Source of the DNA: Bolinopsis microptera
Taxonomy: Eukaryota
DNA: 64,000 nucleotides
Reading direction: 5' to 3'
NCBI RefSeq assembly: GCF_026151205.1
Contig: NC_087073.1
Coordinates: 10,138,636 to 10,202,635, forward strand
Shown here: positions 675 to 63,771 of the stretch, one piece after another
How positions within the stretch are numbered: the first letter of the stretch is position 1
Layout: the number at the start of each line of letters is the position of its first letter
Made by a program: the position numbers and the translations under genes
The notes under the pieces: generated by a model
What the model saw: only the letters and a program-made list of their open reading frames with translations
The model's database searches: none
What the model was told of the DNA's origin: nothing

Positions 675-1059
675 TCAAAAAGCATTCATATGTTATAACT
701 AATTGCTTGATTTTGCACCAAGTTGACGTGCACCGACCAAAATTTAGCGATGAATCCAGAAAATATAACTTTAATAGGTTGTAGGTAAATTGTTCTGTTT
801 AATATGTTTTAGGAATGTACAGTATTTACTATAAAAGTTTGTCGTCGTATAAACTAATTTTGTTATGAATTTTGTTGTGACTTTTTTGTATCGAATTTTT
901 GGATAAAGTTGATTAATTAAAAATAAATTAATGTACACAAATTTTGCCTTAGATATATGTTTTTTACGTTTTGAATTTTTGACACTTGTTTTTAGATCAT
1001 GAATACGATGTAGTCACATTGAAACGTTGAGTAAACTCCTTTCCCTAATAAGAGCATTT

Positions 1060-2812: not shown

Positions 2813-10559
<7,747 letters not shown>

Positions 10560-19400: not shown

Positions 19401-22400
19401 TCAGAGGAAGCCCACAGCAGAAAGATTAACAAAACGAAAAGTTGTATTTTCAAAATGCTGTCCCATATTCAAATAGGAAATTTTCTAAACACAAATTTGA
19501 CAGATTGGATGAAATTTTTGCCCAGAAACCAATTAGTCAGTCAATCAATGATGATATGAAACTAAATTGAAGTACTGGGAGTCAAAATCCCGAATAAAAT
19601 TGCAAAATCATATTGTCCCAATCTCTGTCCCATTTTCAGTTTTTGAAGATGAAATTTCCAGGACCCCAATTTTACAGTTGTGACTGATTTTTTCATCCGC
19701 AACCAATTAGTAAGTCAACTATAGATGCCAAATGACACGATTGAGGTGCTGGAAGTTAGATTTTGGTCAGAGGAAGCCCACAGCAGAAAGATTAACAAAA
19801 CGAAAAGTTGTATTTTCAAAATGCTGTCCCATTTTCAAATAGGAAATTTTCTAAACACAAATTTGACAGATTGGATGAAATTTTTGCCCAGAAACCAATT
19901 AGTCAGTTAATCGATGATGGTATGAAACCAAATTGAAGTACTGGGAGTTAAAATCCCAAATAAAATTACAAAATCATATTGTCCCAATCTCTGTCCCATT
20001 TTCAGTTTTTGAAGATGAAATTTCCAGGACCCCAATTTTACAGTTGTGACTGATTTTTTCATCCGCAACCTATTAGTAAGTCAACTATAGATGCCAAATG
20101 ACACGATTGAGGTGCTGGAAGTTTGATTTCGGTCAGAGGAAGCCCACAGCAGAAAGATTAACAAAACGAAAAGTTGTATTTTCAAATGCTGTCCCATTTT
20201 CAAATAGGAAATTTCTAAACAAAAATTTGACAGATTGGTTAAAATTTTTACCCAGAAACCAATAAGTCAGTTAATCGATGATGGTATGAAACCAAATTGA
20301 AGTACTGGTAGTCAAAATCCCGAATAAAATTGCAAAATCATATTGTCCCAATCTCTGTCCCATTTTCAGTTTTTGAAGATGAAATTTCCAGGACCCAAAT
20401 TTTACAGTTGTGACTGATTTTTTCATCCGCAACCAATTAGTAAGTCAACTATAGATGCCAAATGACACGATTGAGGTGCTGGAAGTTTGATTTCGGTCAG
20501 AGGAAGCCCACAGCAGAAAGATTAACAAAACGAAAAGTTGTATTTTCAAAATGCTGTCCCATTTTCAAATAGGAAATTTTCTAAACACAAATTTGACAGA
20601 TTGGATGAAATTTTTGCCCAGAAACCAATTAGTCAGTTAATCGATGATGGTATGAAACTAAATTGAAGTACTGGGAGTCAAAATCCTGAATAAAATTGCA
20701 AAATCATATTGTCCCAATCTCTGTCCCATTTTCAGTTTTTGAAGATGAAATTTCCAGGACCCCAATTTTACAGTTGTGACTGATTTTTTCATCCGCAACC
20801 AATTAGTAAGTCAATTATAGATGCCAAATGACACGATTGAGGTGCTGGAAGTTAGATTTCGGTCAGAGGAAGCCCACAGCAGAAAGATTAACAAAACGAA
20901 AAGTTGTATTTTCAAAATGCTGTCCCATTTTCAAATAGGAAATTTTCTAAACACAAATTTGACAGATTGATTAAAATTTTTGCCCTGAAACCAATTAGTC
21001 AGTTAATCGATGATGGTATGAAACCAAATTGAAGTACTGGTAGTCAAAATTCCGATAAAATTGCAAAATCATATTGTCCCAATCTCTGTCCCCATTTTCA
21101 GTTTTTGAAGATGAAATTTCCAGGACCCAAAATTTACAGTTGTGACTGATTTTTTCATCTGCAACCAATTAGTAAGTCAACTCTAGATGCCAAATGACAC
21201 GATTGAGGTGCTGGAAGTTTGATTTCGGTCAGAGGAAGCCCACAGCAGAAAGATTAACAAAACGAAAAGTTGTATTTTCAAAATGCTGTCCCATTTTCAA
21301 ATAGGAAATTTTCTAAACACAATTTGACAGATTGGATGAAATTTTTGCCCAGAAACCAATTAGTCAGTTAATCGATGATGGTATGAAACCAAATTGAAGT
21401 AATGGCAGTCAAAATCCCGAATAAAATTGCAAAATCATATTGACCCAATCTCTGTCCCATTTTCAGTTTTTGAAGATGAAATTTCCAGGACCCAAATTTT
21501 ACAGTTGTGACTGATTTTTTCATCTGCAACCAATTAGTAAGTCAACTCTAGATGCCAAATGACACGATTGAGGTGCTGGAAGTTAGATTTCGGTCAGAGG
21601 AAGCCCACAGCAGAAAGATTAACAAAACGAAAAGTTGTATTTTCAAAATGCTGTCCCATTTTCAAATAGGAAATTTTCTAAACACAAATTTGACAGATTG
21701 GATGAAATTTTTGCCCAGAAACCAATTAGTCAGTTAATCGATGATGGTATGAAACCAAATTGAAGTACTGGCAGTCAAAATCCCGAATAAAATTGCAAAA
21801 TCATATTGACCCAATCTCTGTCCCATTTTCAGTTTTTGAAGATGAAATTTCCAGGACCCCAATTTTACAGTTGTGACTGATTTTTTCATCCGCAACCTAT
21901 TAGTAAGTCAACTATAGATGCCAAATGACACGATTGAGGTGCTGGAAGTTTGATTTCGGTCAGAGGAAGCCCACAGCAGAAAGATTAACAAAACGAAAAG
22001 TTGTATTTTCAAAATGCTGTCCCATTTTCAAATAGGAAATTTTCTAAACACAAATTTGACAGATTGGTTAAAATTTTTACCCAGAAACCAATAAGTCAGT
22101 TAATCGATGATGGTATGAAACCAAATTGAAGTACTGGTAGTCAAAATCCCGAATAAATTGCAAAATCATATTGTCCCAATCTCTGTCCCATTTTCAGTTT
22201 TTGAAGATGAAATTTCCAGGACCCAAATTTTAAAGTTGTGACTGATTTTTTCATCCGCAACCAATTAGTAAGTCAACTATAGATGCCAAATGACACGATT
22301 GAGGTGCTGGAAGTTTGATTTCGGTCAGAAGAAGCCCACAGCAGAAAGATTAACAAAACGAAAAGTTGTATTTTCAAAATGCTGTCCCATTTTCAAATAT

Positions 22401-25400
22401 GAAATTTTCTAAACACAAATTTGACAGATTGGATGAAATTTTTGCCCAGAAACCAATTAGTCAGTTAATCGATGATGGTATGAAACCAAATTGAAGTACT
22501 GGCAGTCAAAATCCCGAATAAAATTGCAAAATCATATTGACCCAATCTCTGTCCCATTTTCAGTTTTTGAAGATGAAATTTCCAGGACCCAAATTTTACA
22601 GTTGTGACTGATTTTTTCATCCGCAACCAATTAGTAAGTCAACTATAGATGCCAAATGACACGATTGAGGTGCTGGAAGTTTGATTTCGGTCAGAGGAAG
22701 CCCACAGCAGAAAGATTAACAAAACGAAAAGTTGTATTTTCAAAATGCTGTCCCATTTTCAAATAGGATATTTTCTAAACACAAATTTGACAGATTGGAT
22801 GAAATTTTTGCCCAGAAACCAATTAGTCAGTTAACCGATTATGGTATGAAACCAAATTGAAGTACTGGGAGTCAAAATCCCGAATAAAATTGCAAAATCA
22901 TATTGACCCAATCTCTGTCCCATTTTCAGTTTTTGAAGATGAAATTTCCAGGACCCAAATTTACAGTTGTGACTGATTTTTTTCATCTGCAACCAATTAG
23001 TAAGTCAACTCTAGATGCCAAATGACACGATTGAGGTGCTGGAAGTTAGATTTCGGTCAGAGGAACTCAGGAAGCCCACAGCAGAAAGATTAACAAAACG
23101 AAAAGTTGTATTTTCAAAATGCTGTCCCATTTTCAAATAGGAAATTTTCTAAACACAAATTTGACAGATTGGATGAAATTTTTGCCCAGAAACCAATTAG
23201 TCAGTAATCGATGATGGTATGAAACCAAATTGAAGTACTGGCAGTCAAAATCCCGAATAAAATTGCAAAATCATATTGACCCAATCTCTGTCCCATTTCA
23301 GTTTTTGAAGATGAAATTTCCAGGACCCAAATTTTACAGTTTGTGACTGATTTTTTCATCTGCAACCAATTAGTAAGTCAACTATAGATGCCAAATGACA
23401 CGATTGAGGTTTTGGAAGTTTGATTTCGGTCAGAGGAAGCCCACAGCAGAAAGATTAACAAAACGAAAAGTTGTATTTTCAAAATGCTGTCCCATTTTCA
23501 AATAGGATATTTTCTAAACACAAATTTGACAGATTGGATGAAATTTTTGCCAGAAAACCAATTAGTCAGTTACCGATTATGGTATGAAACCAAATTGAAG
23601 TACTGGAGTCAAAATCCCGAATAAAATTGCAAAATCATATTGACCCAATCTCTGTCCCATTTTCAGTTTTTGAAGATGAAATTTCCAGGACCCAAATTTT
23701 ACAGTTGTGACTTATTTTTTTCATCCGCAACCAATTAGTAAGTTCAACTTATAGATGCCAAATGACACGATGAGGTGCTGGAAGTTTGATTTCGGTCAGA
23801 GGAAGCCCACAGCAGAAAGATTAACAAAACGAAAATTTGTATTTTCAAAATGGATGTCCCATTTTCAAATATGAAATTTTCTAAAACACAATTTGACAGA
23901 TTGGATGAAATTTTTGCCCAAAACCAATAGTCAGTTTAAACCGATTTGGTATGAAACCAAATTGAAGTACTGGGGAGTCAAAATCCCGAATAAAATTGCA
24001 AAATCATATTGACCCCAATCTCTGTCCCATTTTCAGTTTTTGAAGATGAAATTTCCAGGACCCAAATTTTAACAGTTTGTGACTTATTTTTTCATCCGCA
24101 ACCAATTAGTAAGTCAACTATAGATGCCAAATGACACGATTGAGGTGCTTGGAAGTTTGATTTCGGTCAGAAGAAGCCCACAGCAGAAAGATTAACAAAA
24201 CGGAACAAGTTGTATTTTCAAAATGCTGTCCCATTTTCAAATATGAAATTTTCTAAACACAAATTTGACAGATTGGAGAAATTTGCCCAGAAACCAATTA
24301 GTCAGTTATCGATGATGGTATGAAACCAAATTGAAGTACTGCAGTCAAAATCCCGAATAAAATTGCAAAATCATATTGACGCCAATCTCTGTCCCATTTC
24401 AGTTTTGAAGATGAAATTTTCCAGGACCCAAATTTTACAGTGTGACTGATTTTTTCATCCGCAACCAATTAGTAAGTCAACTATAGATAACAAATGACAC
24501 GATTGAGGTGCTGGAAGTTAGATTTCGGTCAGAGGAAGCCCACAGCAGAAAGATTAACAAAACGAAAAGTTGTATTTTCAAATGCTGTCCCATTTTTCAA
24601 ATATGAAATTTCTAAACACAAATTTGACAGATTGGGATGAAATTTTGCCCAGAAACCAATTTAGTCAGTTAATCGATGATGGTATGAAACCAAATTGAAG
24701 TACTGGCAGTCAAAATCCCCGAATAAAATTGCAAAATCATATTGACCCAATTTTTTTTCCCATTTTTTTTTTTTGAAGAAAAATTTTCCCCGGGAAACCC
24801 AAAATTTTTTTAACATTTTTGGACTTTTTTTCATCCGAAACCCAATTAAAAAGTCAACTAAAATTTGAAAAAGACACATTGAGGTGCTGGAAGTTAGTTT
24901 TGGGTAAAGGGGAACTCGGGAAACCCCCCACAGAAAGAAAGATTAAAAAAACGAAAATTTGTATTTAAAAAATTCTGTCCCATTTCCCAAATAGAAATTT
25001 TTTCAAACACAAATTTTTGACAGATTGGAAAAAAATTTTTTGCCCAGAAACCCCAATTTAGTCATTAATCGTTGAGGAAATGAAACCAAATTAAAAGTAT
25101 TTGGCAGTCAAAATCCCGAAAAAAATTTCAAAAACATTTTGACCCAATCTTTTTCCCCCCTTTTTCCCTTATTTGAAAATTAAAATTTTTCCACCCCCCA
25201 AATTTTTTTCCATTTGTGACGATTTTTTAAATCTGCAACCAATTAGAAAGCCCAACCAAAGATCCCAAAATGACACATTTGGGGTGCGGGGAATTTTAAG
25301 ATTTGGGTCAAGGAAGCCCACAGCAGAAAAAATTAAAAAAACCCAAAAATTTTGTTTTAATTAAAAATTCGTCCCTTTTTCAAAAAGGAAATTTCTAAAC

Positions 25401-28400
25401 AAAAAATTTTGACAATTGGTTTGAAAATTTTGCCCAAAAACCATTAGTCTTTTTAAAATCGGATGGTAAAAAACCCAAAATTTGAAGAAACTGGCATTTC
25501 AAAATCCCAAAAAAATTTTGCAAAAAAAATTGACCCAATCCTGCCCCCATTTTCAGTTTTTGAAAAAGGGAAAATTTCCGGGCCCCCAAAATTTTTACAG
25601 TTTTGACTGATTTTTTTCATCTGAAAACCAAATTTAGTAAGTAAACCTAAGATCCCAAATACACGATTGGGGTTTTTGGAATTTTTGTTTTCGGTCAGAG
25701 GAACCCCCCAGCAAAAGATTAACAAAACGAAAAGTTGTTATTTTAAAAAACTGCCCCCTTTTTAAAAAAATAAAATTTTTCTAAACAAAAAATTTGACAA
25801 ATTGGGAAATAAAAATTTTTCCCCGGGAAACCAATTAGCTTTTTTAATCGATGATGGAAGGAAACCAAATTTAAGTAAGGAAATTCAAAACCCCCAATAA
25901 AATGAAAAATAAAATTTTAAAACCCAATCTCTGTCCCATTTTCAGTTTTTGAAGATGAAATTCCAGGACCCAAATTTTACAGTTGTGACTGATTTTTTCA
26001 TCCGCAACCAATTAGTAAGTCAACTCTAGATGCCAAATGATACGATTGAGGTGCTGGAAGTTAGATTTCGGTCAGAGGAACTCAGAGAAGCCCACAGCAG
26101 AAAGATAACAAAACGAAAAGTTGTATTTCAAAATGCTGTCCCATTTTCAAATAGGAAATTTTCTAAACACAAATTTGACAGATTGGATGAAATTTTGCCC
26201 AGAAACCAATTAGTCAGTTAATCGATGATGGTATGAAACCAATTGAAGTACTGGCAGTCAAAATCCCGAATAAAATTGCAAAATCATATTGACCCAATCT
26301 CTGTCCCATTTTCAGTTTTTGAAGAGAAATTTCCAGGACCCAAATTTTACAGTTTGACTGATTTTTTCATCTGCAACCAATTAGTAAGTCAACTATAGAT
26401 GCCAAATGACACGATTGAGGTTTTGAAGTTTGAATTTCGGTCAGAGGAAGCCCACAGCAGAAAGATTAACAAAACGAAAAGTTGTATTTTCAAAATGCTG
26501 TCCCATTTTCAAATAGGATATTTTCTAACACAAATATGACAGATTGGATGAAATTTTGCCCAGAAACCAATAGTCAGTTAACGATGATGGTATGAAACCA
26601 AATTGAAGTACTGGCAGTCAAAATCCCGAATAAAATTGCAAAATCATATTGACCCAATCTCTGTCCCATTTTCAGTTTTTGAAGATGAAATTTCCAGGAC
26701 CCAAATTTTACATTGTGACTGATTTATTCATCCGCAAAACCAATTAGTAAGTCAACTCTAGATGCCAAATGACACGATTGAGGTGCTGGAAGTTAGATTT
26801 CGGTCAGAGGAAGCCCACAGCAGAAAGATTAACAAAACAAAAGTTGTATTTTCAAAATGCTGTCCCATTTCAAATATGAAATTTTTCTAAACACAAATTT
26901 GACAGATTGGATGAAATTTTTGCCCAGAAACCATTAGTCAGTTAATCGATGATGGTATGAAACCAATTTGAAGTACTGGCAGTCAAAATCCCGAAAAAAA
27001 TTGCAAAATCATATTGACCCAATCTCTGTCCCATTTTCAGTTTTGAAGATGAAATTCCAGGACCCAAATTTTACAGTTGTGACTGATTTTTTCATCCGCA
27101 ACCAATTAGTAAGTCAACATCTAGATGCCAAATGACACGATTGAGGTGCTGGAAGTTAGATTTCGGTCAGAGGAAGCCCACAGCAGAAAGATTAACAAAA
27201 CGAAAAGTTGTATTTTTCAAAATGCTGTCCCATTTTCAAATAGGAAATTTTCTAAACACAAAATTGACAGATTGGATGAAATTTTTGTCCAGAAACCAAT
27301 TAGTCCAGTTAATCGATGATGGTATGAAACCAATTTGAAGTACTGGCAGTCAAAATCCCGAATAAAATTGCAAAATCATATTGACCCAATCTCTGTCCCA
27401 TTTTCATTTTTTGAAGATGAAATTTCCAGGACCCAAATTTTACAGTTTGACTGTTTTTTTTTCATCTGCAACCAATTATTAAGTCAACTATAGATGCCAA
27501 ATGACACGATTGAGGGTTTTGGAAGTTAGATTTCAGTCAGAGGAAGCCCACAGCCGAAAGATTAACAAACGAAAAGTTGTATTTTCAAAATGCTGTCCCC
27601 ATTTTCAAATAGGATATTTTCTAAACACAAATTTGACAGATGGATAAATTTTTTGCCCAGAAACCAATAGTCAGTTAATCGATGATGGTATGAAACAAAT
27701 TAGAAAGTACTGGGAGTTAAAATCCCGAATAAATTGCAAAATCATATTGTCCCAATCTCTGTCCCATATTCAGATTTTTGAAGATGAAATTTCCAGGACC
27801 CAAATTTTACAGTTGTGACTGATTTTTTCATCCGCAACCAAATAGTTAGTCAACTATACATGCCAAATGATACGATTGAGGTGCTGGAAGTTTGATTTCG
27901 GTCAGAGGAAGCCCACAGCAAAAAGATTAACAAAACGAAAAGTTGTATTTTCAAAATGCTGTATTTTCAAATAGGAAATTTTCTAAACACAAATTTGACA
28001 GACTGGATGAAATTTTTGCCCAGAAACCAATTAGTCAGTAATCGATGATGGTATGAAACCAAATTGAAGTACTGGGAGTCAAAATCCCGAATAAAATTGC
28101 AAAATCATATTGTTCTAATCTCTGTCCCATTTTCAGTTTTTGAAGATGAAATTTGCAGGACCCCAATTTTACAGTTGTGACTGATTTTTTCATCCGCAAC
28201 CAATTAGTAAGTCAACTATAGATGCCAAATGACACGATTGAGGTGCTGGAAGTTTTGATTTCGGTCAGAGGAAGCCCACAGCAGAAAGCTTAACAAACGA
28301 AAAAGTTGTATTTCAAAATGCTGTCCCATTTTCAAATATGAAATTTTCTTAACACAATTTGACAGATTGGATGAAATTTTTGCCCAGAAACCATTTAGTC

Positions 28401-31400
28401 AGTAATCGATGATGGTTTGAAACCAATTTGAAGTACTGGGAGTCAAAATCCCGAATAAATTGCAAAATCATATTGTTCTAATCTCTGTCCCATTTTCAGT
28501 TTTTGAAGATGAAATTTGCAGGACCCCAATTTTACAGTGTGACTGATTTTTTCATCCGCAACCAATTAGTAAGTCAACTATAGATGCCAAATGACACGAT
28601 TGAGGAGCTGGAAGTTTGATTTCGGTCAGAGGAAGCCCACAGCAGAAAGCTTAACAAAACGAAAAGTAGTATTATCAAAATGCTGTCCCATTTTCAAATA
28701 TGAAATTTTCTAACACTAATTTGACAGATTGGAAGAAATTTTTGCCCAGAAACCAATCAGTCAGTTAATCGATGATGGTATGAAACCAAATTGAAGTACT
28801 GGGAGTCAAAATCCCGAATAAAATTGCAAATCATATTGTCCCAATCTCTGTCCCATTTTCAGTTTTTGAAGATGAAATTTCCAGGACCCAAATTTTACAG
28901 TTGTGACTGATTTTTTCATCCGTAACCAATTAGTAAGTCAACTATAGATGCCAAATAATACGATTGAGGTGCTGGAAGTTTGATTTCGGTCAGAGGAAGC
29001 CCACAGCAGAAGCTTAACAAAACGAAAAGTTGTATTTTCAAAATGCTGTCCCATTTCAAATATGAAATTTTCTAAACACAAATTTGACAGATTGGATGAT
29101 ATTTTTGCCCAGAAACCAATTAGTCAGTTAATCGATGATGGTAGAAACCAAATTGAAGTACTGGGAGTCAAAATCATGAAAAAAATTGCAAAATTCATAT
29201 TGTCCCATCTCTGTCCCTTTTCAGTTTTTGAAGATGAAATTACCAGGACCCAAATTTTACAGTTGTGACTGATTTTTTCATCCGCAGCCAATTATTAAGT
29301 CAACTATAGATGCCAAATAATACGATTGAGGTGCTGGAAGTTTGATTTCGGTCAGAGGAAGCCCACAGCAGAAAGTTTTAACAAAACCAAAAGTTGTATT
29401 TATCAAAATGCTCTCGTCCATTTCAAATATGAAATTTCTTAACTCAAATTTGACAGATTGGTTAAAATTTTTGCTAGAAACCAATTAGTCAGTTAATTGA
29501 TGATGGTATGAAACCAAATTGAAGTACTGGGAGTCAAAATCATGAATAAAATTGCAAAATCATATTGACCCAATCTCATGTCCCATTTTCAGATTTTGAA
29601 GATGAAATTTCCAGGACCCAAATTTTACAGTTGTGACTGATTTTTTCATCCGCAACCAATTAGTAAGATCAACTATAGATAAGATGCCAAATGACACGAT
29701 TGAGGTGCTGGAAGTTTGATTTCGGTCAGAGGAAGCCCACAGCAGAAAGCTTAACAAAACGAAAAGTTGTATTTTCAAATGTCTGTCCCATTTTCAAATA
29801 TGAAAGTTTTCTTAACACAAATTTGACAGATTGGATGAAATTTTTGCCCAGAAACCAATTAGACAGTAATCGATGATGGTATGAAACCAAATTGAAGTAC
29901 AGGGAGTCAAAATCCCGAATAAAATTGCAAAATCATATGTTCTATCTCTGTCCCATTTCAGTTTTTGAAGATGAAATTTCCAGGACCCAAATTTTAGTTG
30001 TGACTGATTTTTCATCCGCAGCCAATTAGTAATTCAACTATAGATGCCAAATGACACGATTGAGGTGCTGGAAGTTTGATTTCGGTCAGAGGAAGCCCAC
30101 AGCAGAAAGCTTAACAAAACGAAAAGTTGTATTTTCAAAATGCTGTCCAATTTCAAATAGGAAATTTTCTAAACACAAATTTGACAGATTGGATGAAATT
30201 TTGCCCAGAAACCAATTAGTCAGTTAATCGATGATGGTATGAAACCAAATTGAAGTACTGGGAGTCAAAATCTCGAATAAAATTGCAAAATCATATCCAT
30301 ATTGTTCTAATCTCTGTCCCATTTTCAGTTTTTGAAGATGAAATTTCCAGGACCCCAATTTTACAGATGAGACTGATTTTTTCATCCGCAACCAATTAGT
30401 AATGTAGTAATTGACGGATGTTACTCGTCTAAATTTCTTCGAAGTAGCGCGCGCCGGGCCAGATCATTAACAATGGTCAAATGTAGTAAGTCAACTATAG
30501 ATGCCAAATGACACGATTGAGGTGCTGGAAGCTTGATTTCGGTCAGAGGAAGCCCACAGCAGAAAGCTTAACAAAACGAAAAGTTGTATTTTCTTGTATC
30601 ACGTGGTGACCCCCACGGTCGCTTCACTGTAGGCGCTTCGACGCTACAGGGGGAGCCGCGCACTCGTGCGCGGCGGGTCATACAACGTAATGACAATGGA
30701 CAAGTATTTTCAAAATGCTGTCCCATTTTCAAATATGACATTTTCTAAACACAAATTTGACAGATTGGATGATATTTTTGCCCAGAAACCAATTAGTCCA
30801 GTAATCGATGATGGTATGAAACCAAATTGAAGTACTGGAGTCCAAAATCATGAATAAAATTGCAAAATCATATTGACCAATTTCTGTCCCATTTTCAGAT
30901 TTGAAGATGAAATTTCCAGGACCCAAATTTTACAGTTGTGACTGATTATTTCATCCGCAATCAATTAGTAAGTCAACTATAGATAAGATGCCAAATGACA
31001 CGATGAGGTGCTGGAAGTTTGATTTCGGTCAGAGAAGCCCACAGCAAAAAGATTAACAAAACGAAAAGTTGTATTTTCAAAATGCTGTCCCATTTTCAAA
31101 TAGGAAATTTCTAGACACAAATTTGACAGATTGGATGAAATTTTTGCCCAGAAACCAATTAGGTCAGTTAATCGAAACCAAATTGAAGTACAGGGAGTCA
31201 AAATCCCAAATAAAATTGCAAAATCATATTCATATTGTTCTAATGTAATCTCTGTCCCATTTCAGTTTTTGAAGATAAATTTCCAGGACCCAATTTTACA
31301 GATGAGACTGATTTTTCATCCGCAACCAATTAGTAAGTCAACTATATATGCCAAATGATACGATCGAGGTGCTGGAAGTTTGATTTCGGTCAGAGGAAGC

Positions 31401-34400
31401 CCACCAGCAGAAAGATTAACAAAACGAAAAGTTGTATTTTCAAAATGCTGTCCCATTTTCAAATATGAAATTTTCTTAACACCAATTTGACAGATTGGAT
31501 GAAATTTTTGTCCAAAACCAATTAGTCAGTTAATCGATGATGGTATGAACCAAATTGAAGTACCTGGCAGTCAAAATCCCGAATAAAATTGCAAAATCAT
31601 ATTGACCCAATCTCTGTCCCATTTTCAGTTTTGAAGATGAAATTTCCAGGACCCCAATTTTACAGATGAACTGATTTTTTCATCCACACCAATTAGTAAG
31701 TCAACTAAAGATGCCAAATGACACGATTGAGGTGCTGGAAGCTTGATTTCGGTCAGAGGAAGCCCACAGCAGAAAGCTTAACAAACGAAAAGTGTATTTT
31801 CTTGTATCACGTGGTGACCCCCACGGTCGCTTCACTGTAGCGTCCTTCGACGCTACAGGGGGGGCCCGCCACTTCGTGCGCGGCGGTCATACAACGTATG
31901 ACAATGGACAAGTATTTTCAAAATGCTGTCCCATATTCAAATAGAAATTTTCTAAACACAAATTGACAGATTGGATGATATTTTTGCCCAGAAACCATTA
32001 GTCAGTTAATCGATGATGGTATGAAACCAAATTGAAGTACTGGTAGTCAAAATCATGAATAAAAATTGCAAAATCATATTGACCCAATCTCTGTCCCATT
32101 TCAGATTTTGAAGATGAAATTTCCAGACCCAAATTTTTACAGTTGTGACTGATTTTTTCATCCGCAATCAATTAGTAAGTCAACTATAGATAAGATGCCA
32201 AATGACACGATTGAGGTGCTGGAAGTATGATTTCGGTCAGAGGAAGCCCACAGCAAAAAAGATTACCAAAACGAAAAGTTGATTTTCAAAATGCTGTCCC
32301 ATTTTCAAATAGGAATTATCTAACACAAATTTGACAGATTGGATGAAATTTTTGCCCAGAAACCATTAGTCAGTTAATCGAAAACCAAATTGAAGTACTG
32401 GGAATCAAAATCCCAAATAAAATTGCAAAATCATATTCATATTGTTCTATGTAATCTCTGTCCCATTTTCAGTTTTTGAAGATGAAATTTACAGGACCCA
32501 AATTTTACAGATGAGACTGATTTTTTCATCCGCAACCAATTAGTAAGTCAACTATCGATGCCAAATGATACGATCGAGTGCTGGAAGTTTGATTCGGTCA
32601 GAGGAAGCCCACAAGCAGAAAGCATAACAAAACGAAAAGTTGTATTTTCAAAATGCTGTCCCATTTTCAAATATGAAATTTTCTTAACACAAATTTGACA
32701 GATTGGATGAAATTTTTGCCCAGAAACCAAATTAAGTCAGTAATCGCTGATGGTATGAAACCAAATTGAAGTACTGGCAGTCAAAATCCCGAATAAAATT
32801 GCAAAATCATATTGACCCAATCTCTGTCCCATTTCAGTTTTTGAAGATGAAATTTCCAGGACCCCAATTTTACAGATGAGACTGATTTTTTCATCCACAA
32901 CCAATTAGTAAGTCAACTATAGATGCCAATGACACGATTGAGGTGCTGGAAGCTTGATTTCGGTCAGAGGGAAGCCCACAGCAGAAAGCTTAACAAAACG
33001 AAAAGTTGTATTTTCAAAATGCTGTCCCATTTTCAAATATGAAAGTTTCTTAACACAAATTTGACAGATTGGATGAAATTTTTGTCCAGAAACCAATTAG
33101 TCAGTTAATCGATGATGGTATGAAACCAAATTGAAGTACTGGCAGTCAAAATCCCGAATAAAATTGCAAATCATATTGACCCAATCTCTGTCCCATTTTC
33201 AGTTTTTGAAGATGAAATTTCCAGGACCCCAATTTTACAGATGAGACTGATTTTTTCATCCACAACCATTAGTAAGTCAACTATAGATGCCAAATGACAC
33301 GATTGAGGTGCTGGAAGCTTGATTTCGGTCAGAGGAAGCCCACAGCAGAAAGCTTAACAAAACGAAAAGTTGTATTTTCTTGTATCACGTGGTGACCCCC
33401 ACGGTCGCTTCACTGTAGCGTCTTCGACGCTACAGGGGGGGGCCGCGCACTTCGTGCGCGGCGGGTCATACAACGTATGACAATGGACAAGTATTTTCAA
33501 AATGCTGTCCCATTTTCAAATATGAAATTTTCTAAACACAAATTTGACAGATTGGATGATATTTTTGCCCGGAAACCAATTAGTCAGTTAATCGATGATG
33601 TATGAAACCAAATTGAAGTACTGGGAGTCAAAATCATGAATAAAATTGCAAATCATATTGACCCAATCTCTGTCCCATTTTCAGATTTTGAAGATGAAAT
33701 TTCCAGGACCCAAATTTTACAGTTGTGACTGATTTTTTCATCCGCAATCAATTAGTAAGTCAACTATAGATAAGATGCCAAATGACACGATTGAGGTGCT
33801 GGAAGTTTGATTTCGGTCAGAGGAAGCCCACAGCAAAAAGATTAACAAAACGAAAAGTTGTATTTTCAAAATGCTGTCCCATTTTCAAATAGGAAATTTC
33901 TAAACACAAATTTGACAAATTGGATGAAATTTTTGCCCAGAAACAATTAGTCAGTTAATCGAAACCAAATTGAAGTACTGGAGTCAAAATCCCAAATAAA
34001 ATTGCAAAATCATATTCATATTGTTCTAATGTAATCTCTGTCCATTTTCAGTTTTTGAAGATGAAATTTCCAGGACCCAAATTTTACAGATGAGACTGAT
34101 TTTTTTCATCCGCAACCAATTAGTAAGTCAACTATAGATGCCAAATGATACGATCGAGGTGCTGGAAGTTTGATTTCGGTCAGAGGAAGCCCACAGCAGA
34201 AAGCTTAACAAAACGAAAAGTTGTATTTTCAAAATGCTGTCCCATTTTCAAATATGAAATTTTCTTAACACAAATTTGACAGATTGGATGAAATTTTTGC
34301 CCAGAAACCAATTAGTCAGTTAATCGATGATGGTATGAAACCAAATTGAAGTACTGGCAGTCAAAATCCCGAATAAAATTGCAAAATCATATTGACCCAA

Positions 34401-37400
34401 TCTCTGTCCCATTTTCAGTTTTTGAAGATGAAATTTCCAGGACCCCAATTTACAGATGAGACTGATTTTTTCATCACAACCATTAGTAAGTCAACTATAG
34501 ATGCCAAATGACACGATTGAGGTGCTGGAAGCTTGATTTCGGTCAGAGGAAGCCCACAGCAGAAAGCTTAACAAAACGAAAAGTTGTATTTCTTGTATCA
34601 CGTGGTGACCCCCACGGTCGCTTCACTGTAGCGTCTTCGACGCTACAGGGGGGGCCGCGCACTTCGTGCGCGGCGGGTCATACAACGTATGACAATGGAC
34701 AAGTAGTTTCAAAATGCTGTCCCATTTTCAAATATGAAATTTTCTAAACACAAATTTGACAGATTGGATGATATTTTGCCCAGAAACCAATTAGTCAGTT
34801 AATCGATGATGGTATGAAACCAAATTGAAGTACTGGAGTCAAAATCATGAATAAAATTGCAAATCATATTGACCCAATCTCTGTCCCATTTTCAGATTTG
34901 AAGATGAAATTTCCAGGACCCAAATTTTACAGTTGTGACTGATTTTTTTCATCCGCAATCAATTAGTAAGTCAACTATAGATAAGATGCCAAATGACACG
35001 ATTGAGGTGCTGGAAGTTTGATTTCGGTCAGAGGAAGCCCACAGCAAAAAGATTAACAAAACGAAAAGTTGTATTTTCAAAATGCTGTCCCATTTTCAAT
35101 AGGAAATTTCTAAACACAAATTGACAGATTGGATGAAATTTTTGCCCAGAAACCAATTAGTCAGTTAATCGAAAACCAAATTGAAGTACTGGGAGTCAAA
35201 ATCCCAAATAAAATTGCAAAATCATATTCATATTGTTCTAATGTAATCTCTGTCCCATTTTCAGTTTTTGAAGATGAAATTTTCCAGGACCCAAATTTTA
35301 CAGATGAGACTGATTTTTTCATCCGCAACCAATTAGTAAGTCAACTATAAATGCCAAATGATACGATCGAGGTGCTGGAAGTTTGATTTCGGTCAGAGGA
35401 AGCCCACAGCAGAAAGCTTAACAAAACGAAAAGTTGTATTTTCAAAATGCTGTCCCATTTTCAAATATGAAATTTTCTTAACACAAATTTGACAGATTGG
35501 ATGAAATTTTTGTCCAGAAACCAATTAGTCAGTTAATCGATGATGGTATGAAACCAAATTGAAGTACTGGCAGTCAAAATCCCGAATAAAATTGCAAAAT
35601 CATATTGACCCAATCTCTGTCCCATTTTCAGTTTTTGAAGATGAAATTTCCAGGACCCCAATTTTACAGATGAGACTGATTTTTTCATCCACAACCAATT
35701 AGTAAGTCAACTATAGATGCCAAATGACACGATTGAGGTGCTGGAAGCTTGATTTCGGTCAGAGGAAGCCCACAGCAGAAAGCTTAACAAAACGAAAAGT
35801 TGTATTTTCTTGTATCACGTGGTGACCCCCACGGTCGCTTCACTGTAGCGTCTTCGACGCTACAGGGGGGGCCGCGCACTTCGTGCGCGGCGGGTCATAC
35901 AACGTATGACAATGGACAAGTATTTTCAAAATGCTGTCCCATTTTCAAATATGAAATTTTCTAAACACAAATTTGACAGATTGGATGATATTTTTGCCCG
36001 GAAACCAATTAGTCAGTTAATCGATGATGGTATGAAACCAAATTGAAGTACTGGGAGTCAAAATCATGAATAAAATTGCAAAATCATATTGACCCAATCT
36101 CTGTCCCATTTTCAGATTTTGAAGATGAAATTTCCAGGACCCAAATTTTACAGTTGTGACTGATTTTTTCATCCGCAATCAATTAGTAAGTCAACTATAG
36201 ATAAGATGCCAAATGACACGATTGAGGTGCTGGAAGTTTGATTTCGGTCAGAGGAAGCCCACAGCAAAAAGATTAACAAAACGAAAAGTTGTATTTTCAA
36301 AATGCTGTCCCATTTTCAAATAGGAAATTTCTAAACACAAATTTGACAAATTGGATGAAATTTTTGCCCAGAAACCAATTAGTCAGTTAATCGAAACCAA
36401 ATTGAAGTACTGGGAGTCAAAATCCCAAATAAAATTGCAAAATCATATTCATATTGTTCTAATGTAATCTCTGTCCCATTTTCAGTTTTTGAAGATGAAA
36501 TTTCCAGGACCCAAATTTTACAGATGAGACTGATTTTTTCATCCGCAACCAATTAGTAAGTCAACTATAGATGCCAAATGATACGATCGAGGTGCTGGAA
36601 GTTTGATTTCGGTCAGAGGAAGCCCACAGCAGAAAGCTTAACAAAACGAAAAGTTGTATTTTCAAAATGCTGTCCCATTTTCAAATATGAAATTTTCTTA
36701 ACACAAATTTGACAGATTGGATGAAATTTTTGCCCAGAAACCAATTAGTCAGTTAATCGATGATGGTATGAAACCAAATTGAAGTACTGGCAGTCAAAAT
36801 CCCGAATAAAATTGCAAAATCATATTGACCCAATCTCTGTCCCATTTTCAGTTTTTGAAGATGAAATTTCCAGGACCCCAATTTTACAGATGAGACTGAT
36901 TTTTTCATCCACAACCAATTAGTAAGTCAACTATAGATGCCAAATGACACGATTGAGGTGCTGGAAGCTTGATTTCGGTCAGAGGAAGCCCACAGCAGAA
37001 AGCTTAACAAAACGAAAAGTTGTATTTTCTTGTATCACGTGGTGACCCCCACGGTCGCTTCACTGTAGCGTCTTCGACGCTACAGGGGGGGCCGCGCACT
37101 TCGTGCGCGGCGGGTCATACAACGTATGACAATGGACAAGTATTTTCAAAATGCTGTCCCATTTTCAAATATGAAATTTTCTAAACACAAATTTGACAGA
37201 TTGGATGATATTTTTGCCCAGAAACCAATTAGTCAGTTAATCGATGATGGTATGAAACCAAATTGAAGTACTGGGAGTCAAAATCATGAATAAAATTGCA
37301 AAATCATATTGACCCAATCTCTGTCCCATTTTCAGATTTTGAAGATGAAATTTCCAGGACCCAAATTTTACAGTTGTGACTGATTTTTTCATCCGCAATC

Positions 37401-39830
37401 AATTAGTAAGTCAACTATAGATAAGATGCCAAATGACACGATTGAGGTGCTGGAAGTTTGATTTCGGTCAGAGGAAGCCCACAGCAAAAAGATTAACAAA
37501 ACGAAAAGTTGTATTTTCAAAATGCTGTCCCATTTTCAAATAGGAAATTTCTAAACACAAATTTGACAGATTGGATGAAATTTTTGCCCAGAAACCAATT
37601 AGTCAGTTAATCGAAACCAAATTGAAGTACTGGGAGTCAAAATCCCAAATAAAATTGCAAAATCATATTCATATTGTTCTAATGTAATCTCTGTCCCATT
37701 TTCAGTTTTTGAAGATGAAATTTCCAGGACCCAAATTTTACAGATGAGACTGATTTTTTCATCCGCAACCAATTAGTAAGTCAACTATAAATGCCAAATG
37801 ATACGATCGAGGTGCTGGAAGTTTGATTTCGGTCAGAGGAAGCCCACAGCAGAAAGCTTAACAAAACGAAAAGTTGTATTTTCAAAATGCTGTCCCATTT
37901 TCAAATATGAAATTTTCTTAACACAAATTTGACAGATTGGATGAAATTTTTGCCCAGAAACCAATTAGTCAGTTAATCGATGATGGTATGAAACCAAATT
38001 GAAGTACTGGCAGTCAAAATCCCGAATAAAATTGCAAAATCATATTGACCCAATCTCTGTCCCATTTTCAGTTTTTGAAGATGAAATTTCCAGGACCCCA
38101 ATTTTACAGATGAGACTGATTTTTTCATCCACAACCAATTAGTAAGTCAACTATAGATGCCAAATGACACGATTGAGGTGCTGGAAGCTTGATTTCGGTC
38201 AGAGGAAGCCCACAGCAGAAAGCTTAACAAAACGAAAAGTTGTATTTTCTTGTATCACGTGGTGACCCCCACGGTCGCTTCACTGTAGCGTCTTCGACGC
38301 TACAGGGGGGGGCCGCGCACTTCGTGCGCGGCGGGTCATACAACGTATGACAATGGACAAGTATTTTCAAAATGCTGTCCCATTTTCAAATATGAAATTT
38401 TCTAAACACAAATTTGACAGATTGGATGATATTTTTGCCCAGAAACCAATTAGTCAGTTAATCGATGATGGTATGAAACCAAATTGAAGTACTGGGAGTC
38501 AAAATCATGAATAAAATTGCAAAATCATATTGACCCAATCTCTGTCCCATTTTCAGATTTTGAAGATGAAATTTCCAGGACCCAAATTTTACAGTTGTGA
38601 CTGATTTTTTCATCCGCAATCAATTAGTAAGTCAACTATAGATAAGATGCCAAATGACACGATTGAGGTGCTGGAAGTTTGATTTCGGTCAGAGGATTAG
38701 AGGAAGCCCACAGCAAAAAGATTAACAAAACGAAAAGTTGTATTTTCAAAATGCTGTCCCATTTTCAAATAGGAAATTTCTAAACACAAATTTGACAGAT
38801 TGGATGAAATTTTTGCCCAGAAACCAATTAGTCAGTTAATCGAAACCAAATTGAAGTACTGGGAGTCAAAATCCCAAATAAAATTGCAAAATCATATTCA
38901 TATTGTTCTAATGTAATCTCTGTCCCATTTTCAGTTTTTGAAGATGAAATTTCCAGGACCCAAATTTTACAGATGAGACTGATTTTTTCATCCGCAACCA
39001 ATTAGTAAGTCAACTATAGATGCCAAATGATACGATCGAGGTGCTGGAAGTTTGATTTCGGTCAGAGGAAGCCCACAGCAGAAAGCTTAACAAAACGAAA
39101 AGTTGTATTTTCAAAATGCTGTCCCATTTTCAAATATGAAATTTTCTTAACACAAATTTGACAGATTGGATGAAATTTTTGCCCAGAAACCAATTAGTCA
39201 GTTAATCGATGATGGTATGAAACCAAATTGAAGTACTGGCAGTCAAAATCCCGAATAAAATTGCAAAATCATATTGACCCAATCTCTGTCCCATTTTCAG
39301 TTTTTGAAGATGAAATTTCCAGGACCCCAATTTTACAGATGAGACTGATTTTTTCATCCACAACCAATTAGTAAGTCAACTATAGATGCCAAATGACACG
39401 ATTGAGGTGCTGGAAGCTTGATTTCGGTCAGAGGAAGCCCACAGCAGAAAGCTTAACAAAACGAAAAGTTGTATTTTCAAAATGCTGTCCCATTTTCAAA
39501 TATGAAATTTTCTTAACACAAATTTGTCAGATTGGATGAAATTTTTGCCCAGAAACCAATAAGTCAGTTAATCGATGATGGTATGAAACCAAATTGAGCG
39601 ACTGGGAGTCAAAATCCCGAATAAAATCATATCACATATTGTCCCAATCTGTCTCATTTCAGTTTTTGAAGATTAAATTTGCAGGACCCAAATTTCACAG
39701 TTGTGACCGATTTTTCATCCGCAACCAATTAGTAAGTCAACTATATATATGCCAAATGACACGATTGAGGACTGGACGTTTGATTTCGGTCAGAAGAGGC
39801 TCACAGCAAAATAAGCTTAAAATATGCCAG
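16490..39830 (+). repeat. Satellite DNA array: ~366-bp monomer, about 63 copies, ~23.3 kb, organised in higher-order repeats
   Basis: Monomer ...gatgccaaatgacacgattgaggtgctggaag[ct]ttgatttcggtcagaggaagcccacagcagaaag[ac]ttaacaaaacgaaaagttgtattttcaaaatgctgtcccattttcaaatagg... 16.5-23 kb is a 3-monomer HOR (period 1098-1099 bp; identical ORFs recur at 17528, 18626 and 19725). 23-27.5 kb is a degraded zone. 30.4-39.5 kb is a ~1218-bp HOR that includes a GC-rich insert and one shortened monomer. The repeated 61-aa ORFs (MPNDTIEVLEVRF...) come from the monomer sequence and are probably not coding. Confidence 0.92.
33379..33492 (+). other. GC-rich ~115-bp module of consecutive hairpins inside satellite HOR units. 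Other copies at 30593-30705, 31801-31912, 34592-34704, 35809-35920, 37029-37140, 38249-38362
   Basis: cttgtatcacgtggtgacccccacggtcgcttcaCTGTAGCGTCttcGACGCTACAGggggggGCCGCGCACttcGTGCGCGGCgGTCATAcaacgTATGACaatggacaag. It contains a 10-bp stem with ttc loop, a 9-bp stem with ttc loop, and a 6-bp stem with 5-nt loop, plus a CACGTG E-box palindrome. GC content is far above the AT-rich monomer. Confidence 0.8.
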
Positions 39831-60177: not shown

Positions 60178-60420
60178 CCCCTTTCTTGTGTAAAAGTGAC
60201 CGTCACTTTTGATGACACATCTGGCCCTTTTGGGTCACTTTTTTTTAACAACGTCGACTTTTGGTCACTTTTTTTCACGTTGAGGCCGCTTTTTGGTCGT
60301 TTCTGGTCGCCTTTTAAATTTTGGTCGCTTCTGGTCGCTTCTAGTCGCTTCTGGTCGCTTTTTGGTCGCTTCTGGTCACCTTTTAGGGTTTATGTGACAT
60401 GTCGCTTTTACACAAGAAAG
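60178..60420 (+). repeat. Small IR-bounded element (22-bp imperfect inverted termini) enclosing a (TGGTCGCTTC)n decamer array
   Basis: ccctttcttgtgtaaaagtgac ... gtcgcttttacacaagaaagggg has one mismatch. The interior is tggtcgcttctggtcgcttctagtcgcttctggtcgctttttggtcgcttctggtcacc. It may be a MITE or the subterminal repeats of the adjacent hAT element. Confidence 0.4.
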
Positions 60421-60546
60421 GGGTCAAAATATCCAGGGTGCGTTTTGTTTAGACTTGTTAGAAGAATTTTGATGACTAATTGTGCCATCTGGTATCAAAA
60501 TTCACGATAATTAACAAATTCACGTGCCTTAGGCTAAGAAGCTAGG

Positions 60547-63500: not shown

Positions 63501-63771
63501 TGCGCCGGCGAGTTCAGCAGCACCAGAAAGATTGTTTTCTACAGCAGGGCACATCCTGAAGTTAAATCGCCTCAGCCTTAAGCCAACAAACTTTGAGGGG
63601 TGCTTGTTTCTCAAAAAGAACATCGGAACATTTGGGGACAACTTCGGCCCCTGTCCAGATGAATTCGAAGCCCCAAATAAAGATGACTGTCCCCCTTCTG
63701 AGCTGTGCACAGACGATTATTCTGATTCAGAGTGCTCAGATATTGTAATTTCATCAGACGATGAATCTTAG
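60547..63771 (+). CDS. hAT-superfamily transposase with N-terminal BED zinc finger and C-terminal hAT dimerisation domain; 7 coding exons, 674 aa, apparently intact. Exons 60547-60693, 60924-61230, 61446-61706, 61938-62183, 62331-62497, 62650-62852, 63078-63771
   Basis: Exon 1 MSQSKRSVSGVWQFFSVPDPGANPHLAECKECSASIRRGKPGQSAKDYQ is a BED finger (C-x2-C...H-x-H continues in exon 2 as VTSLWDHLKHKHP). Middle exons hold hAT core motifs (YSLTCDVWSSKALDSYLGVIIHFV, CFLHILNLIV, VDTRWNSYYMMFDVF). The last exon has LLDPRFK and PLVYWKANKQRYPNLAECSRKYLSAPASSAAPERLFSTAGHILKLNRLSLKPTNFEGCLFLKKN. All six introns are GT-AG with phases 0,1,1,1,0,2 and the total is 2025 nt. The listed ORFs 60933, 61448, 61958, 62243, 62629 and 63043 are the exon frames. 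Confidence 0.75.

What the first reader, a model, noticed from the sequence alone, without database searches (positions are those of the whole stretch)
30593..38362. Recurrent 115-bp GC-rich module of consecutive hairpins embedded in the AT-rich satellite
Seven copies at ~1.2-kb spacing are each built of consecutive perfect stem-loops: CTGTAGCGTC-ttc-GACGCTACAG, GCCGCGCAC-ttc-GTGCGCGGC and GTCATA-caacg-TATGAC. They sit next to a CACGTG E-box. The earliest copy (30593) has mismatches in the stems and a shorter loop, while later copies are perfect. That suggests the structure, not only the sequence, is being maintained or homogenised. Possible roles are a cruciform, a protein-binding or hairpin-RNA motif, a transposon footprint, or a structured element tied to satellite function.
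Basis: seen in the sequence. Interest (0 to 1): 0.65.

Follow-up and report, generated by a model that had tools for sequence, protein, structure and literature searches.

The report
Hairpin-rich insert copied with a satellite
A 110-bp GC-rich piece of foreign DNA made of hairpins inserted once into one unit of an AT-rich tandem repeat and was then copied seven times along with its neighbouring units, so its "perfect" copies reflect recent block duplication rather than preservation of a structure.

Summary
Seven same-strand copies of a 110-111-bp, 60% GC module lie in a 34% GC, 366-bp satellite. Each contains three perfect hairpins with 3-nt loops and folds far better than shuffles (z -5 to -7).

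The interpretation mostly does not hold. Every copy sits at the same monomer position between two copies of an 8-bp direct repeat, GTATTTTC, that ordinary monomers carry once. That indicates one insertion with a target-site duplication. The seven copies arose because the host monomer belongs to a three-monomer higher-order repeat (about 1,220 bp) that was amplified as a block. Module divergence tracks flank divergence in every unit (10.6% vs 11.7% variable columns, p = 0.88). No stem change is compensated. A module-free three-monomer repeat at the other end of the array is just as homogeneous.

The insert looks most like a short non-coding mobile element. A second, single-copy 70-bp insert 113 bp upstream shares its TTG start and ACAATGGNCAA end, and has relatives in a sister genome. 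Its superfamily is unresolved, and no other module copy was found. This is an ordinary composite satellite carrying a new small element: low interest.

The parts
16538..39808 (+). 366-bp AT-rich satellite array (about 63 monomers). The monomer is itself an old dimer of ~166- and ~200-bp halves.
   Evidence: TRF period 366, 37.7 copies at 91% plus further blocks. Monomer segmentation. Halves are 62% identical.
30707..39473 (+). Higher-order-repeat domain: units of A, B and C monomers plus the module (~1,220 bp), with one unit carrying an extra empty C monomer.
   Evidence: Monomer identity at lag 3 is 0.94-1.00, against 0.84-0.94 at lags 1-2. Repeat families have spacings of 1208-1221 bp.
30594..30703 (+). 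Module copy 1 (degenerate: 3 pairs broken in hairpin 1, hairpin 2 loop is TC, extra A in hairpin 3).
31802..31911 (+). Module copy 2 (degenerate: extra C in the loop of hairpin 1, 5' arm of hairpin 2 scrambled).
33380..33490 (+). Module copy 3 (stems perfect; G-run one base longer).
34593..34702 (+). Module copy 4 (identical to the consensus).
35810..35919 (+). Module copy 5 (consensus; the copy used for folding).
37030..37139 (+). Module copy 6 (consensus).
38250..38360 (+). Module copy 7 (stems perfect; G-run one base longer).
35802..35809 (+). Left copy of the 8-bp target-site duplication GTATTTTC (shown for copy 5; the same at all seven, with single-base errors at copy 4).
35920..35927 (+). 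Right copy of the 8-bp target-site duplication GTATTTTC. Ordinary monomers read AAAAGTTGTATTTTCAAAATGC, with the 8-mer present once.
35816..35821 (.). CACGTG palindrome inside the module (positions 7-12).
   Evidence: sequence
35843..35865 (.). Hairpin 1: CTGTAGCGTC-TTC-GACGCTACAG (10-bp stem; the loop is GAA on the - strand).
   Evidence: -14.8 kcal/mol alone
35871..35891 (.). Hairpin 2: GCCGCGCAC-TTC-GTGCGCGGC (9-bp stem; the loop is GAA on the - strand).
   Evidence: -17.2 kcal/mol alone
35894..35910 (.). Hairpin 3: GTCATAC-AAC-GTATGAC (7-bp stem). Its 5' arm can instead pair with the module's 5' end TTGTATCAC (8 of 9).
30411..30480 (+). Second, single-copy 70-bp insert in the monomer that carries module copy 1. 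It starts TTGACGG and ends AACAATGGTCAA, its ends form a 10/13 inverted repeat, and ATGTAGTAA flanks it on both sides (the empty site has TAGTAA).
32645..33010 (+). C-type monomer without the module (empty site), 97-98% identical to filled C monomers.
39108..39473 (+). C-type monomer without the module (empty site), 98-99% identical to filled C monomers.

Best explanation
A ~110-bp, palindrome-rich, non-coding mobile element of the miniature, non-autonomous kind inserted once into a C-type monomer of the 366-bp satellite and duplicated 8 bp of target (GTATTTTC). The A-B-C three-monomer block carrying it was then multiplied by unequal exchange or segmental amplification. This produced a composite ~1.22-kb repeat unit and seven module copies.

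The hairpins belong to the inserted element; they may be its terminal or sub-terminal recognition structures. Nothing in the data suggests that the satellite selects for them. The inner units look perfect because they were duplicated most recently, and the edge units (1 and 2) are older or less homogenised.

Shown: one insertion site, the flanking duplication, the higher-order repeat, and equal divergence of module and flanks. Inferred: that the inserted DNA is a transposable element and that the amplification mechanism was unequal exchange.
For: - Identical site and orientation, with an exact 8-bp flanking duplication, in all seven copies. Ordinary monomers are continuous across the site and carry the 8-mer once.
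- The composition is foreign: 60% vs 34% GC. No k-mer links the module to the satellite or to the rest of the window beyond chance.
- The homologous position in the other half of the dimeric monomer has no such block.
- The higher-order repeat is clear: lag-3 identity is 0.94-1.00 against 0.84-0.94 at lags 1-2.
- Module and flank divergence are equal, unit by unit, and there is no covariation.
- A second small insert 113 bp upstream shares the TTG start and the ACAATGGNCAA end. That 11-mer occurs only at these 8 places in 64 kb, against 0.32 expected.
- The second insert aligns to the module better than all 500 shuffles (score 40 vs 22.6 +/- 4.3). Its own ends form a 10/13 inverted repeat.
- Its two halves match a cluster of short palindromic repeats in a ~90%-identical sister genome at 88% identity.
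- Other elements with 8-9-bp duplications are active in this genome: a hAT-type ORF at 63043-63771, and a foldback element with a 9-bp duplication inside a LINE.
Against: - No second, independent copy of the module was found. Nothing turned up in the rest of the window, in ~80 kb from related genomes, or in JGI metagenome, viral or prokaryote collections beyond isolated hairpin matches with unrelated flanks.
- The terminal inverted repeat is weak. Only TTGT/ACAA is strictly terminal. The better match, TTGTATCAC with GTCATACAA, is sub-terminal at the 3' side.
- The ends do not fit any superfamily I know of that makes 8-bp duplications. hAT ends begin YARNG, and the hAT target consensus nTnnnnAn is met at position 2 but not position 7.
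- The link between the module and the second insert rests on short motifs.
Confidence: 0.6

Rival explanations
1. Retroposed fragment. The module and the 70-bp insert are reverse-transcribed copies of the structured 3' end of a LINE or SINE (or of a small RNA), inserted by target-primed reverse transcription and then amplified with the higher-order repeat.
For: - The two inserts resemble each other most at the 3' end (ACAATGGNCAA) and progressively less toward the 5' end, as 5'-truncated or related retrocopies would.
- The module ends in about 1.7 copies of a heptamer (ATGACA ATGGACA A).
- (ACAATGG)3 occurs in a related genome (L040).
- The flanking duplications differ in length (8 bp vs 6 or 9 bp), as is typical of this mechanism.
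- LINE 3' ends recognised through stem-loops plus short repeats are known from eel UnaL2 (from my own knowledge).
- LINEs are abundant in this genome.
Against: - There is no poly(A) and no clear microsatellite tail.
- No tRNA, 5S or 7SL head was found (ARAGORN; Rfam).
- The one LINE in the window has an unrelated 3' region.
- The 70-bp insert has inverted-repeat ends, and its relatives lie among palindromic DNA-element-like repeats.
Confidence: 0.15
2. Captured filler DNA. A double-strand break in the satellite was repaired with a stray GC-rich fragment or with snap-back templated synthesis. The 8-bp repeat comes from a staggered break or from microhomology.
For: - The module is unique to this locus in everything searched.
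- Perfect inverted repeats with 3-nt spacers are what snap-back synthesis produces.
- The terminal inverted repeats are weak.
Against: - No part of the module is templated from nearby sequence in either orientation.
- An exact 8-bp duplication directly abutting both ends is typical of transposition.
- A second insert with the same termini nearby, which has relatives in another genome, argues for a family rather than an accident.
Confidence: 0.1
3. Selected structural element. The hairpin module is a cruciform, protein-binding or hairpin-RNA element kept intact because it serves the satellite, or it actively promotes amplification of its own repeat unit.
For: - Folding is very non-random on both strands.
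- On the - strand both long hairpins have a GAA loop closed by C:G, the apex of the very stable DNA mini-hairpin GCGAAGC found at some replication origins (PMC13037366).
- The units that contain the module form the most homogeneous part of the right half of the array.
Against: - The module is no better conserved than neutral flanking satellite.
- Every stem change is disruptive and none is compensated.
- A module-free three-monomer repeat at 16884-20177 is equally homogeneous.
- Empty C monomers persist within the domain.
- About 56 of the ~63 monomers lack the module.
- There is no Rfam family match.
Confidence: 0.07
4. Ancestral segment. The module belonged to the original repeat unit, and all other monomers lost it by deletion between the two GTATTTTC repeats.
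For: Deletion between 8-bp direct repeats is mechanistically easy. Empty C-type monomers that are 97-99% identical to filled ones exist.
Against: - Only 7 of ~63 monomers carry it, and all 7 lie in one higher-order-repeat lineage.
- The composition is foreign.
- The paralogous half-monomer has no counterpart.
- The diverged array edges (16538 and 39808) lack it.
Confidence: 0.04
5. Assembly artefact. The module, or its copy number, was created by mis-assembly or by adapter or chimeric sequence in noisy long reads.
For: The assembly is noisy. There are homopolymer indels throughout, and a badly inflated stretch at about 24770-26100. Some 'mutations' in copies 1 and 2 may be read errors.
Against: The copies are embedded at an identical monomer position with a clean duplication, inside units that differ from one another by their own substitutions. 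There is no convincing resemblance to the sequencing adapters I know.
Confidence: 0.03

Closest known systems
Composite satellite units: a transposable-element insertion carried along when a higher-order repeat is amplified (for example the 'composite elements' of the complete human genome; bioRxiv 10.1101/2021.07.12.451456)
   Same: The tandem unit consists of satellite monomers plus a foreign, TE-like piece. It expanded by unequal crossing-over and concerted evolution, and unit-to-unit identity exceeds monomer-to-monomer identity.
   Different: The foreign piece here is only 110 bp, is unclassified, and consists almost wholly of hairpins. The array is short (seven units).
MITEs (miniature inverted-repeat transposable elements) with 8-bp target duplications, such as hAT-derived MITEs
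   Same: It is short and non-coding, has an exact 8-bp target-site duplication and strong secondary structure, and inserted into AT-rich DNA.
   Different: The strictly terminal inverted repeat is only 4 bp and the ends lack the hAT YARNG signature. Multi-copy dispersal has not been demonstrated.
MITE or Helentron elements that carry satellite-like tandem repeats (clam DTC84, PMC3879986; Drosophila virilis Tetris, PMC4079207; Helentron-associated elements; titles and abstracts seen)
   Same: There is a close physical association between a small structured mobile element and a satellite in an AT-rich genome, apparently that of a marine organism.
   Different: The topology is reversed. Here the element sits inside a pre-existing monomer, with the monomer continuous on both sides, rather than the repeats sitting inside the element. 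Helitron-type insertion makes no target duplication, so the 8-bp duplication excludes it.
Parvovirus-type T- or Y-shaped terminal hairpins (AAV inverted terminal repeat; from my own knowledge)
   Same: Two adjacent ~21-23-nt GC-rich palindromes with 9-10-bp stems and 3-nt loops are bracketed by an outer imperfect stem (TTGTATCACGTGGTGACCC with GGGTCATACAACGTATGACAA).
   Different: The outer stem is weak (about 14 of 19). There are no viral genes nearby and no match in viral contigs. A clean 8-bp target duplication is not how such termini integrate.

Membership tests
Composite higher-order satellite repeat | Units n monomers apart are more similar than neighbouring monomers. | tested here: met
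   Lag-3 identity is 0.94-1.00 against 0.84-0.94 at lags 1 and 2.
Composite higher-order satellite repeat | The foreign segment sits at the same position in each unit and diverges in step with the unit. | tested here: met
   Same site and same duplication in all seven copies. Module vs flank variable columns are 10.6% vs 11.7%, p = 0.88.
MITE / non-autonomous DNA transposon | Short, with no coding capacity. | tested here: met
   110 bp.
MITE / non-autonomous DNA transposon | Target-site duplication of fixed length directly flanking the element. | tested here: met
   GTATTTTC on both sides and once in empty monomers.
MITE / non-autonomous DNA transposon | Terminal inverted repeats. | tested here: inconclusive
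   Only TTGT/ACAA is terminal. The pairing of TTGTATCAC with GTCATACAA (8 of 9) is sub-terminal at the 3' side.
MITE / non-autonomous DNA transposon | Many dispersed copies with different flanks. | not testable with these tools
   No eukaryote genome of this species could be searched. There were no copies in the rest of the window, in ~80 kb of related contigs, or in JGI metagenome contigs.
hAT superfamily | 8-bp duplication with target consensus nTnnnnAn, and ends starting YARNG. | tested here: not met
   The duplication length fits. However, the target GTATTTTC has T rather than A at position 7, and the ends are TTGTAT... / ...GGACAA. The consensus is from my own knowledge.
Helitron / Helentron terminus | Insertion without target duplication (between A-T or T-T); a 3' hairpin followed by CTRR; a 5' TC. 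| tested here: not met
   There is an exact 8-bp duplication. The ends are TTG... and ...GGACAA.
SINE / retroposed small RNA | Pol III-type head (tRNA, 5S or 7SL) or a match to a known RNA family. | tested here: not met
   ARAGORN found nothing. Rfam gave no credible hit on the module (best was mir-981 at 17.8 bits against a gathering score of 51, and it mostly lies in the flank).
SINE / retroposed small RNA | A-rich or short-repeat 3' tail, and a duplication of variable length. | tested here: inconclusive
   The end is ...ATGACAATGGACAA, about 1.7 heptamers. The duplications are 8 bp for the module and 6 or 9 bp for the 70-bp insert.
Conserved structured RNA or DNA element | Base pairs are maintained through compensatory changes, and the element is conserved above the neutral background. 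| tested here: not met
   There were 0 compensatory pairs and 6 pairs broken in some copy. Conservation does not exceed that of the flanks. Power is low, with four distinct sequences from one lineage.
Parvovirus-like terminal hairpin | A fully palindromic outer stem enclosing two small palindromes, with viral genes or viral relatives. | tested here: not met
   The outer stem is imperfect, and there was no match in viral contigs.

The most novel reading that the evidence does not exclude
The module is a self-promoting structural element. Its very stable hairpins have C(GAA)G apexes on the - strand, like those at some single-strand replication origins. They could stall forks or attract a hairpin-specific nuclease, so that the insert itself triggered the local amplification of the three-monomer block that carries it. 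That would be a concrete example of a palindromic insertion seeding a new higher-order repeat.
Probability: 0.06. Interest if true: 0.6.

Novelty: new member of a known kind. Interest (0 to 1): 0.25.

Why it matters
This is a clean, small example of how a satellite acquires a composite higher-order unit. One foreign insertion marks a block, so the order of later duplications can be read from it. Filled and empty C monomers and the graded divergence of units 1 to 7 make that history legible.

The insert and its 70-bp neighbour may define an undescribed family of very small hairpin-rich elements that share TTG...ACAATGGNCAA termini, in a eukaryote that is probably marine and poorly sampled. That would interest people who annotate repeats in that lineage.

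It does not provide evidence for a selected DNA or RNA structure in satellite DNA.

Tried and rejected
- **Known RNA families and tRNA-like genes.** Rfam at gathering and at permissive thresholds, and ARAGORN, found nothing on the module.
- **Bacterial origin.** The 21-mer of hairpin 2 occurs exactly in 34 prokaryote contigs. In each it is only the apex of a longer terminator-like palindrome with unrelated flanks, so this is convergence.
- **Metagenome and viral scans.**
  - Hairpin 1 gave one JGI hit and two viral hits, all isolated 19-23-mers with unrelated flanks.
  - Two further viral patterns gave nothing.
- **Orthologous array in relatives.**
  - Syntenic contigs L001 (~90% identical) and L002 (~75%) were fetched through the neighbouring HECT gene. 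L001 stops about 270 bp short of the array.
  - L002 shows no satellite in the 2.3 kb beyond the last gene.
  - Attempts to walk further failed.
- **Local templating.** No module k-mers match the satellite or the window above chance, in either orientation.
- **Excision footprints.** No duplicated GTATTTTC or TAGTAA was found without an insert.
- **Link to elements in the window.** The ends of the foldback element (GGTTCTTTTGCG...) and the region around the hAT ORF show no similarity to the module ends.
- **Organism identification.** All three protein searches returned only unnamed metagenome proteins. One close LINE copy comes from JGI sample 3300009505, which I believe from memory, unverified, to be marine.

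Full report
**Setting.** The window is eukaryotic nuclear DNA. It holds a 980-aa HECT ubiquitin-ligase ORF, a non-LTR retrotransposon ORF and a hAT-type ORF. The closest relatives of these proteins are unnamed proteins from metagenome assemblies. From 16538 to 39808 runs a 366-bp satellite of 34% GC. Its monomer is an old dimer of ~166- and ~200-bp halves that are 62% identical. The consensus sequence is noisy: homopolymer indels are common, and the stretch at about 24770-26100 is grossly inflated.

**Checking the observation.**
- Seven copies of the GC-rich block exist, all on the + strand. They lie at 30594-30703, 31802-31911, 33380-33490, 34593-34702, 35810-35919, 37030-37139 and 38250-38360. 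A module 14-mer occurs 7 times against 0.02 expected.
- The block is 110-111 bp and 60% GC.
- It contains three hairpins: CTGTAGCGTC-TTC-GACGCTACAG, GCCGCGCAC-TTC-GTGCGCGGC and GTCATAC-AAC-GTATGAC. It also contains a CACGTG palindrome at positions 7-12.
- Either strand folds far better than shuffles, as DNA or as RNA. The z-scores are -5.8, -6.8, -5.2 and -5.4, with 0 of 200 shuffles as stable.
- Copies 1 and 2 both carry stem or loop defects. Copies 3 to 7 have perfect stems.

**One insertion, not seven.**
- I aligned the seven copies with ordinary monomers. The satellite is continuous across the block except for one feature: the 8-mer GTATTTTC occurs on both sides of the block, but only once in empty monomers (AAAAGTTGTATTTTCAAAATGC).
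- This is the signature of a single insertion with an 8-bp target-site duplication.
- The composition is foreign, and no k-mer ties the block to the satellite or to anything else in the window above chance.
- The paralogous site in the other half-monomer has no counterpart. That argues against the block being ancestral.

**How one became seven.**
- Cutting the array into monomers shows that, in the right-hand domain, monomers three apart are 94-100% identical. Neighbours are only 84-94% identical. This is an A-B-C higher-order repeat, and the block sits in the C monomer.
- The unit is about 1,220 bp. One interval of 1,578 bp contains an extra, empty C monomer (32645-33010). The last C monomer (39108-39473) is also empty, and both are 97-99% identical to filled C monomers.
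- The insertion therefore hit one C monomer of an existing or nascent three-monomer repeat, and block amplification carried it along.

**Is the structure maintained?** Three tests say no.
1. *Variation.* Variable alignment columns are 12/113 in the module and 101/864 in the co-amplified flanks (Fisher p = 0.88).
   - Per unit, module and flank differences from the majority sequence rise and fall together. Unit 1 is 5.3% vs 3.1%, unit 2 is 4.4% vs 5.2%, and units 5-6 are 0% vs 0.5-0.6%.
2. *Covariation.* On the three-hairpin structure, 20 of 26 pairs never vary, 6 depart only by broken pairs, and none changes on both sides. Power is low because there are only four distinct sequences from one lineage.
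3. *Control array.* The left end of the array (16884-20177) is a three-monomer repeat that is ~100% identical at lag 3 and has no module. Homogenisation therefore does not need the module.

The "perfection" of the late copies reflects how recently they were duplicated. Part of the "decay" in copies 1 and 2 may be consensus error.

**What the inserted DNA is.**
- It matches no Rfam family and no tRNA-like gene.
- Exact-match scans for hairpin 1 in JGI metagenome contigs and viral contigs gave only isolated hairpin-sized hits with unrelated flanks.
- The 21-mer of hairpin 2 occurs in 34 prokaryote contigs. Each time it is the apex of a longer terminator-like palindrome with different flanks, which is convergence on a stable GC stem rather than homology.
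- The best clue is a second, single-copy insert at 30411-30480, in the monomer that carries module copy 1 and 113 bp upstream of it.
  - It is 70 bp, begins TTGACGG and ends AACAATGGTCAA. Its ends form a 10/13 inverted repeat.
  - It is flanked by ATGTAGTAA on both sides, where empty monomers have TAGTAA.
- The module begins TTGTATC and ends GACAATGGACAA. The shared 11-mer ACAATGGNCAA occurs only at these eight places in the window, against 0.32 expected.
- The two inserts align better than any of 500 shuffles (score 40 vs 22.6 +/- 4.3).
- The halves of the 70-bp insert match, at 88% identity, two sites in contig L042. That contig comes from the same ENA assembly as the ~90%-identical syntenic contig L001. 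The sites lie within a nest of short palindromic repeats.
- A family of very small, GC-richer elements with related termini therefore exists in this lineage, and it has hit this satellite at least twice.
- I rate the module as a member of such a mobile family at about 0.6. The main reservations are that I found no independent module copy, that its strictly terminal inverted repeat is only 4 bp, and that its ends fit no superfamily I know.
- A retroposed LINE or SINE 3' end is the main rival. It would explain the shared 3' motif, the heptamer-like tail and the variable duplication length.

**Structural details.**
- All three hairpins have 3-nt loops closed by C:G. On the - strand the two long ones present C(GAA)G. 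This is the apex of the exceptionally stable DNA mini-hairpin GCGAAGC, although the second stem pair differs (PMC13037366).
- The 5' end TTGTATCAC...TGACCC can pair with GGGTCA...GTCATACAA. The whole block can thus adopt a T- or Y-shape with two arms, reminiscent of parvoviral terminal hairpins. No viral link was found.
- These features fit an element whose ends are recognised as structure. They do not show any function in the satellite.

**Comparison with what is known.**
- Tandem units that combine satellite monomers with a TE-derived piece, and that expand by unequal exchange, are well documented. An example is the composite elements of the complete human genome (bioRxiv 10.1101/2021.07.12.451456).
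- TE-satellite interconversion is a common theme. Examples are hobo tandems in Drosophila (PMC5932611), clam DTC84 and Drosophila virilis Tetris (PMC3879986 and PMC4079207, listed).
- In this case the element lies inside the satellite rather than the other way round.
- Helitron or Helentron origin is excluded by the 8-bp duplication.

**Verdict.** It is a new, unclassified small insert that hitch-hiked in a higher-order satellite repeat. Interest is 0.25. The residual novel reading is that the palindromic insert itself triggered amplification of its block. The evidence does not exclude it, but the equally homogeneous module-free repeat at the other end of the array disfavours it.

Noticed in passing
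window 30411-30480: A single-copy 70-bp insert (47% GC) in the satellite, 113 bp upstream of module copy 1. Its ends are TTGACGG...AACAATGGTCAA (10/13 inverted repeat), and ATGTAGTAA flanks it on both sides. Its halves match contig L042, from the same assembly as the ~90%-identical relative L001, at 3771-3803 and 4147-4181 (88% identity).
   Followed up: partly
window 55790-57519: A 1.73-kb foldback-type element built of inverted arrays of 10/20-bp AGCGCTGG...GCGACAACT repeats, with TIR GGTTCTTTTGCGATAGTCAAAACGCGACAAC. It interrupts the LINE ORF with a 9-bp duplication CCTACTACC. The uninterrupted LINE copy in L041 shows the empty site. The only Rfam hit at gathering score in the window (MIR474, 56097-56200) lies in its repeat arrays and is almost certainly spurious.
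   Followed up: partly
window ~24770-26100: Satellite monomers with strongly inflated homopolymers (for example TTTTTTTTCCCATTTTTTTTTTTT) and lengths of 391, 396 and 762 bp. This looks like a low-quality long-read consensus rather than biology, so single-base differences elsewhere in the array should be treated with caution.
   Followed up: no
window 16884-20177: A separate three-monomer higher-order repeat at the left end of the array, ~100% identical at lag 3, without any inserted module.
   Followed up: yes
window 16538-39808 (any monomer, e.g. 22375-22740): The 366-bp monomer is an ancient head-to-tail dimer of ~166- and ~200-bp halves that are 62% identical.
   Followed up: partly
loci L004-L037 (prokaryote contigs): The exact 21-mer GCCGCGCACTTCGTGCGCGGC recurs in 34 bacterial contigs (many from WOR-3 and Patescibacteria MAGs). 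Each time it forms the tip of a longer terminator-like palindrome with different outer stems. This is a convergent 'favourite' hairpin apex.
   Followed up: partly
L042 3798-3825 and 3944-3987: Inverted telomere-like repeats (TTAGGGTTAGGG ... AACCTTAACCTTAAC) bracket a ~120-bp GC-rich segment, directly after the sequence that matches the 3' half of the 70-bp insert.
   Followed up: no
window 2-677 and 54663-55789: Two copies of the 3' part of the same LINE family (93-94% identical to L041 4816-5990). The family is abundant in unnamed metagenome assemblies.
   Followed up: no
window 60178-60423: A small palindromic element with 23-bp inverted ends (CCCCTTTCTTGTGTAAAAGTGAC) enclosing TGGTCGCTTC tandem repeats. 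It looks like another MITE.
   Followed up: no
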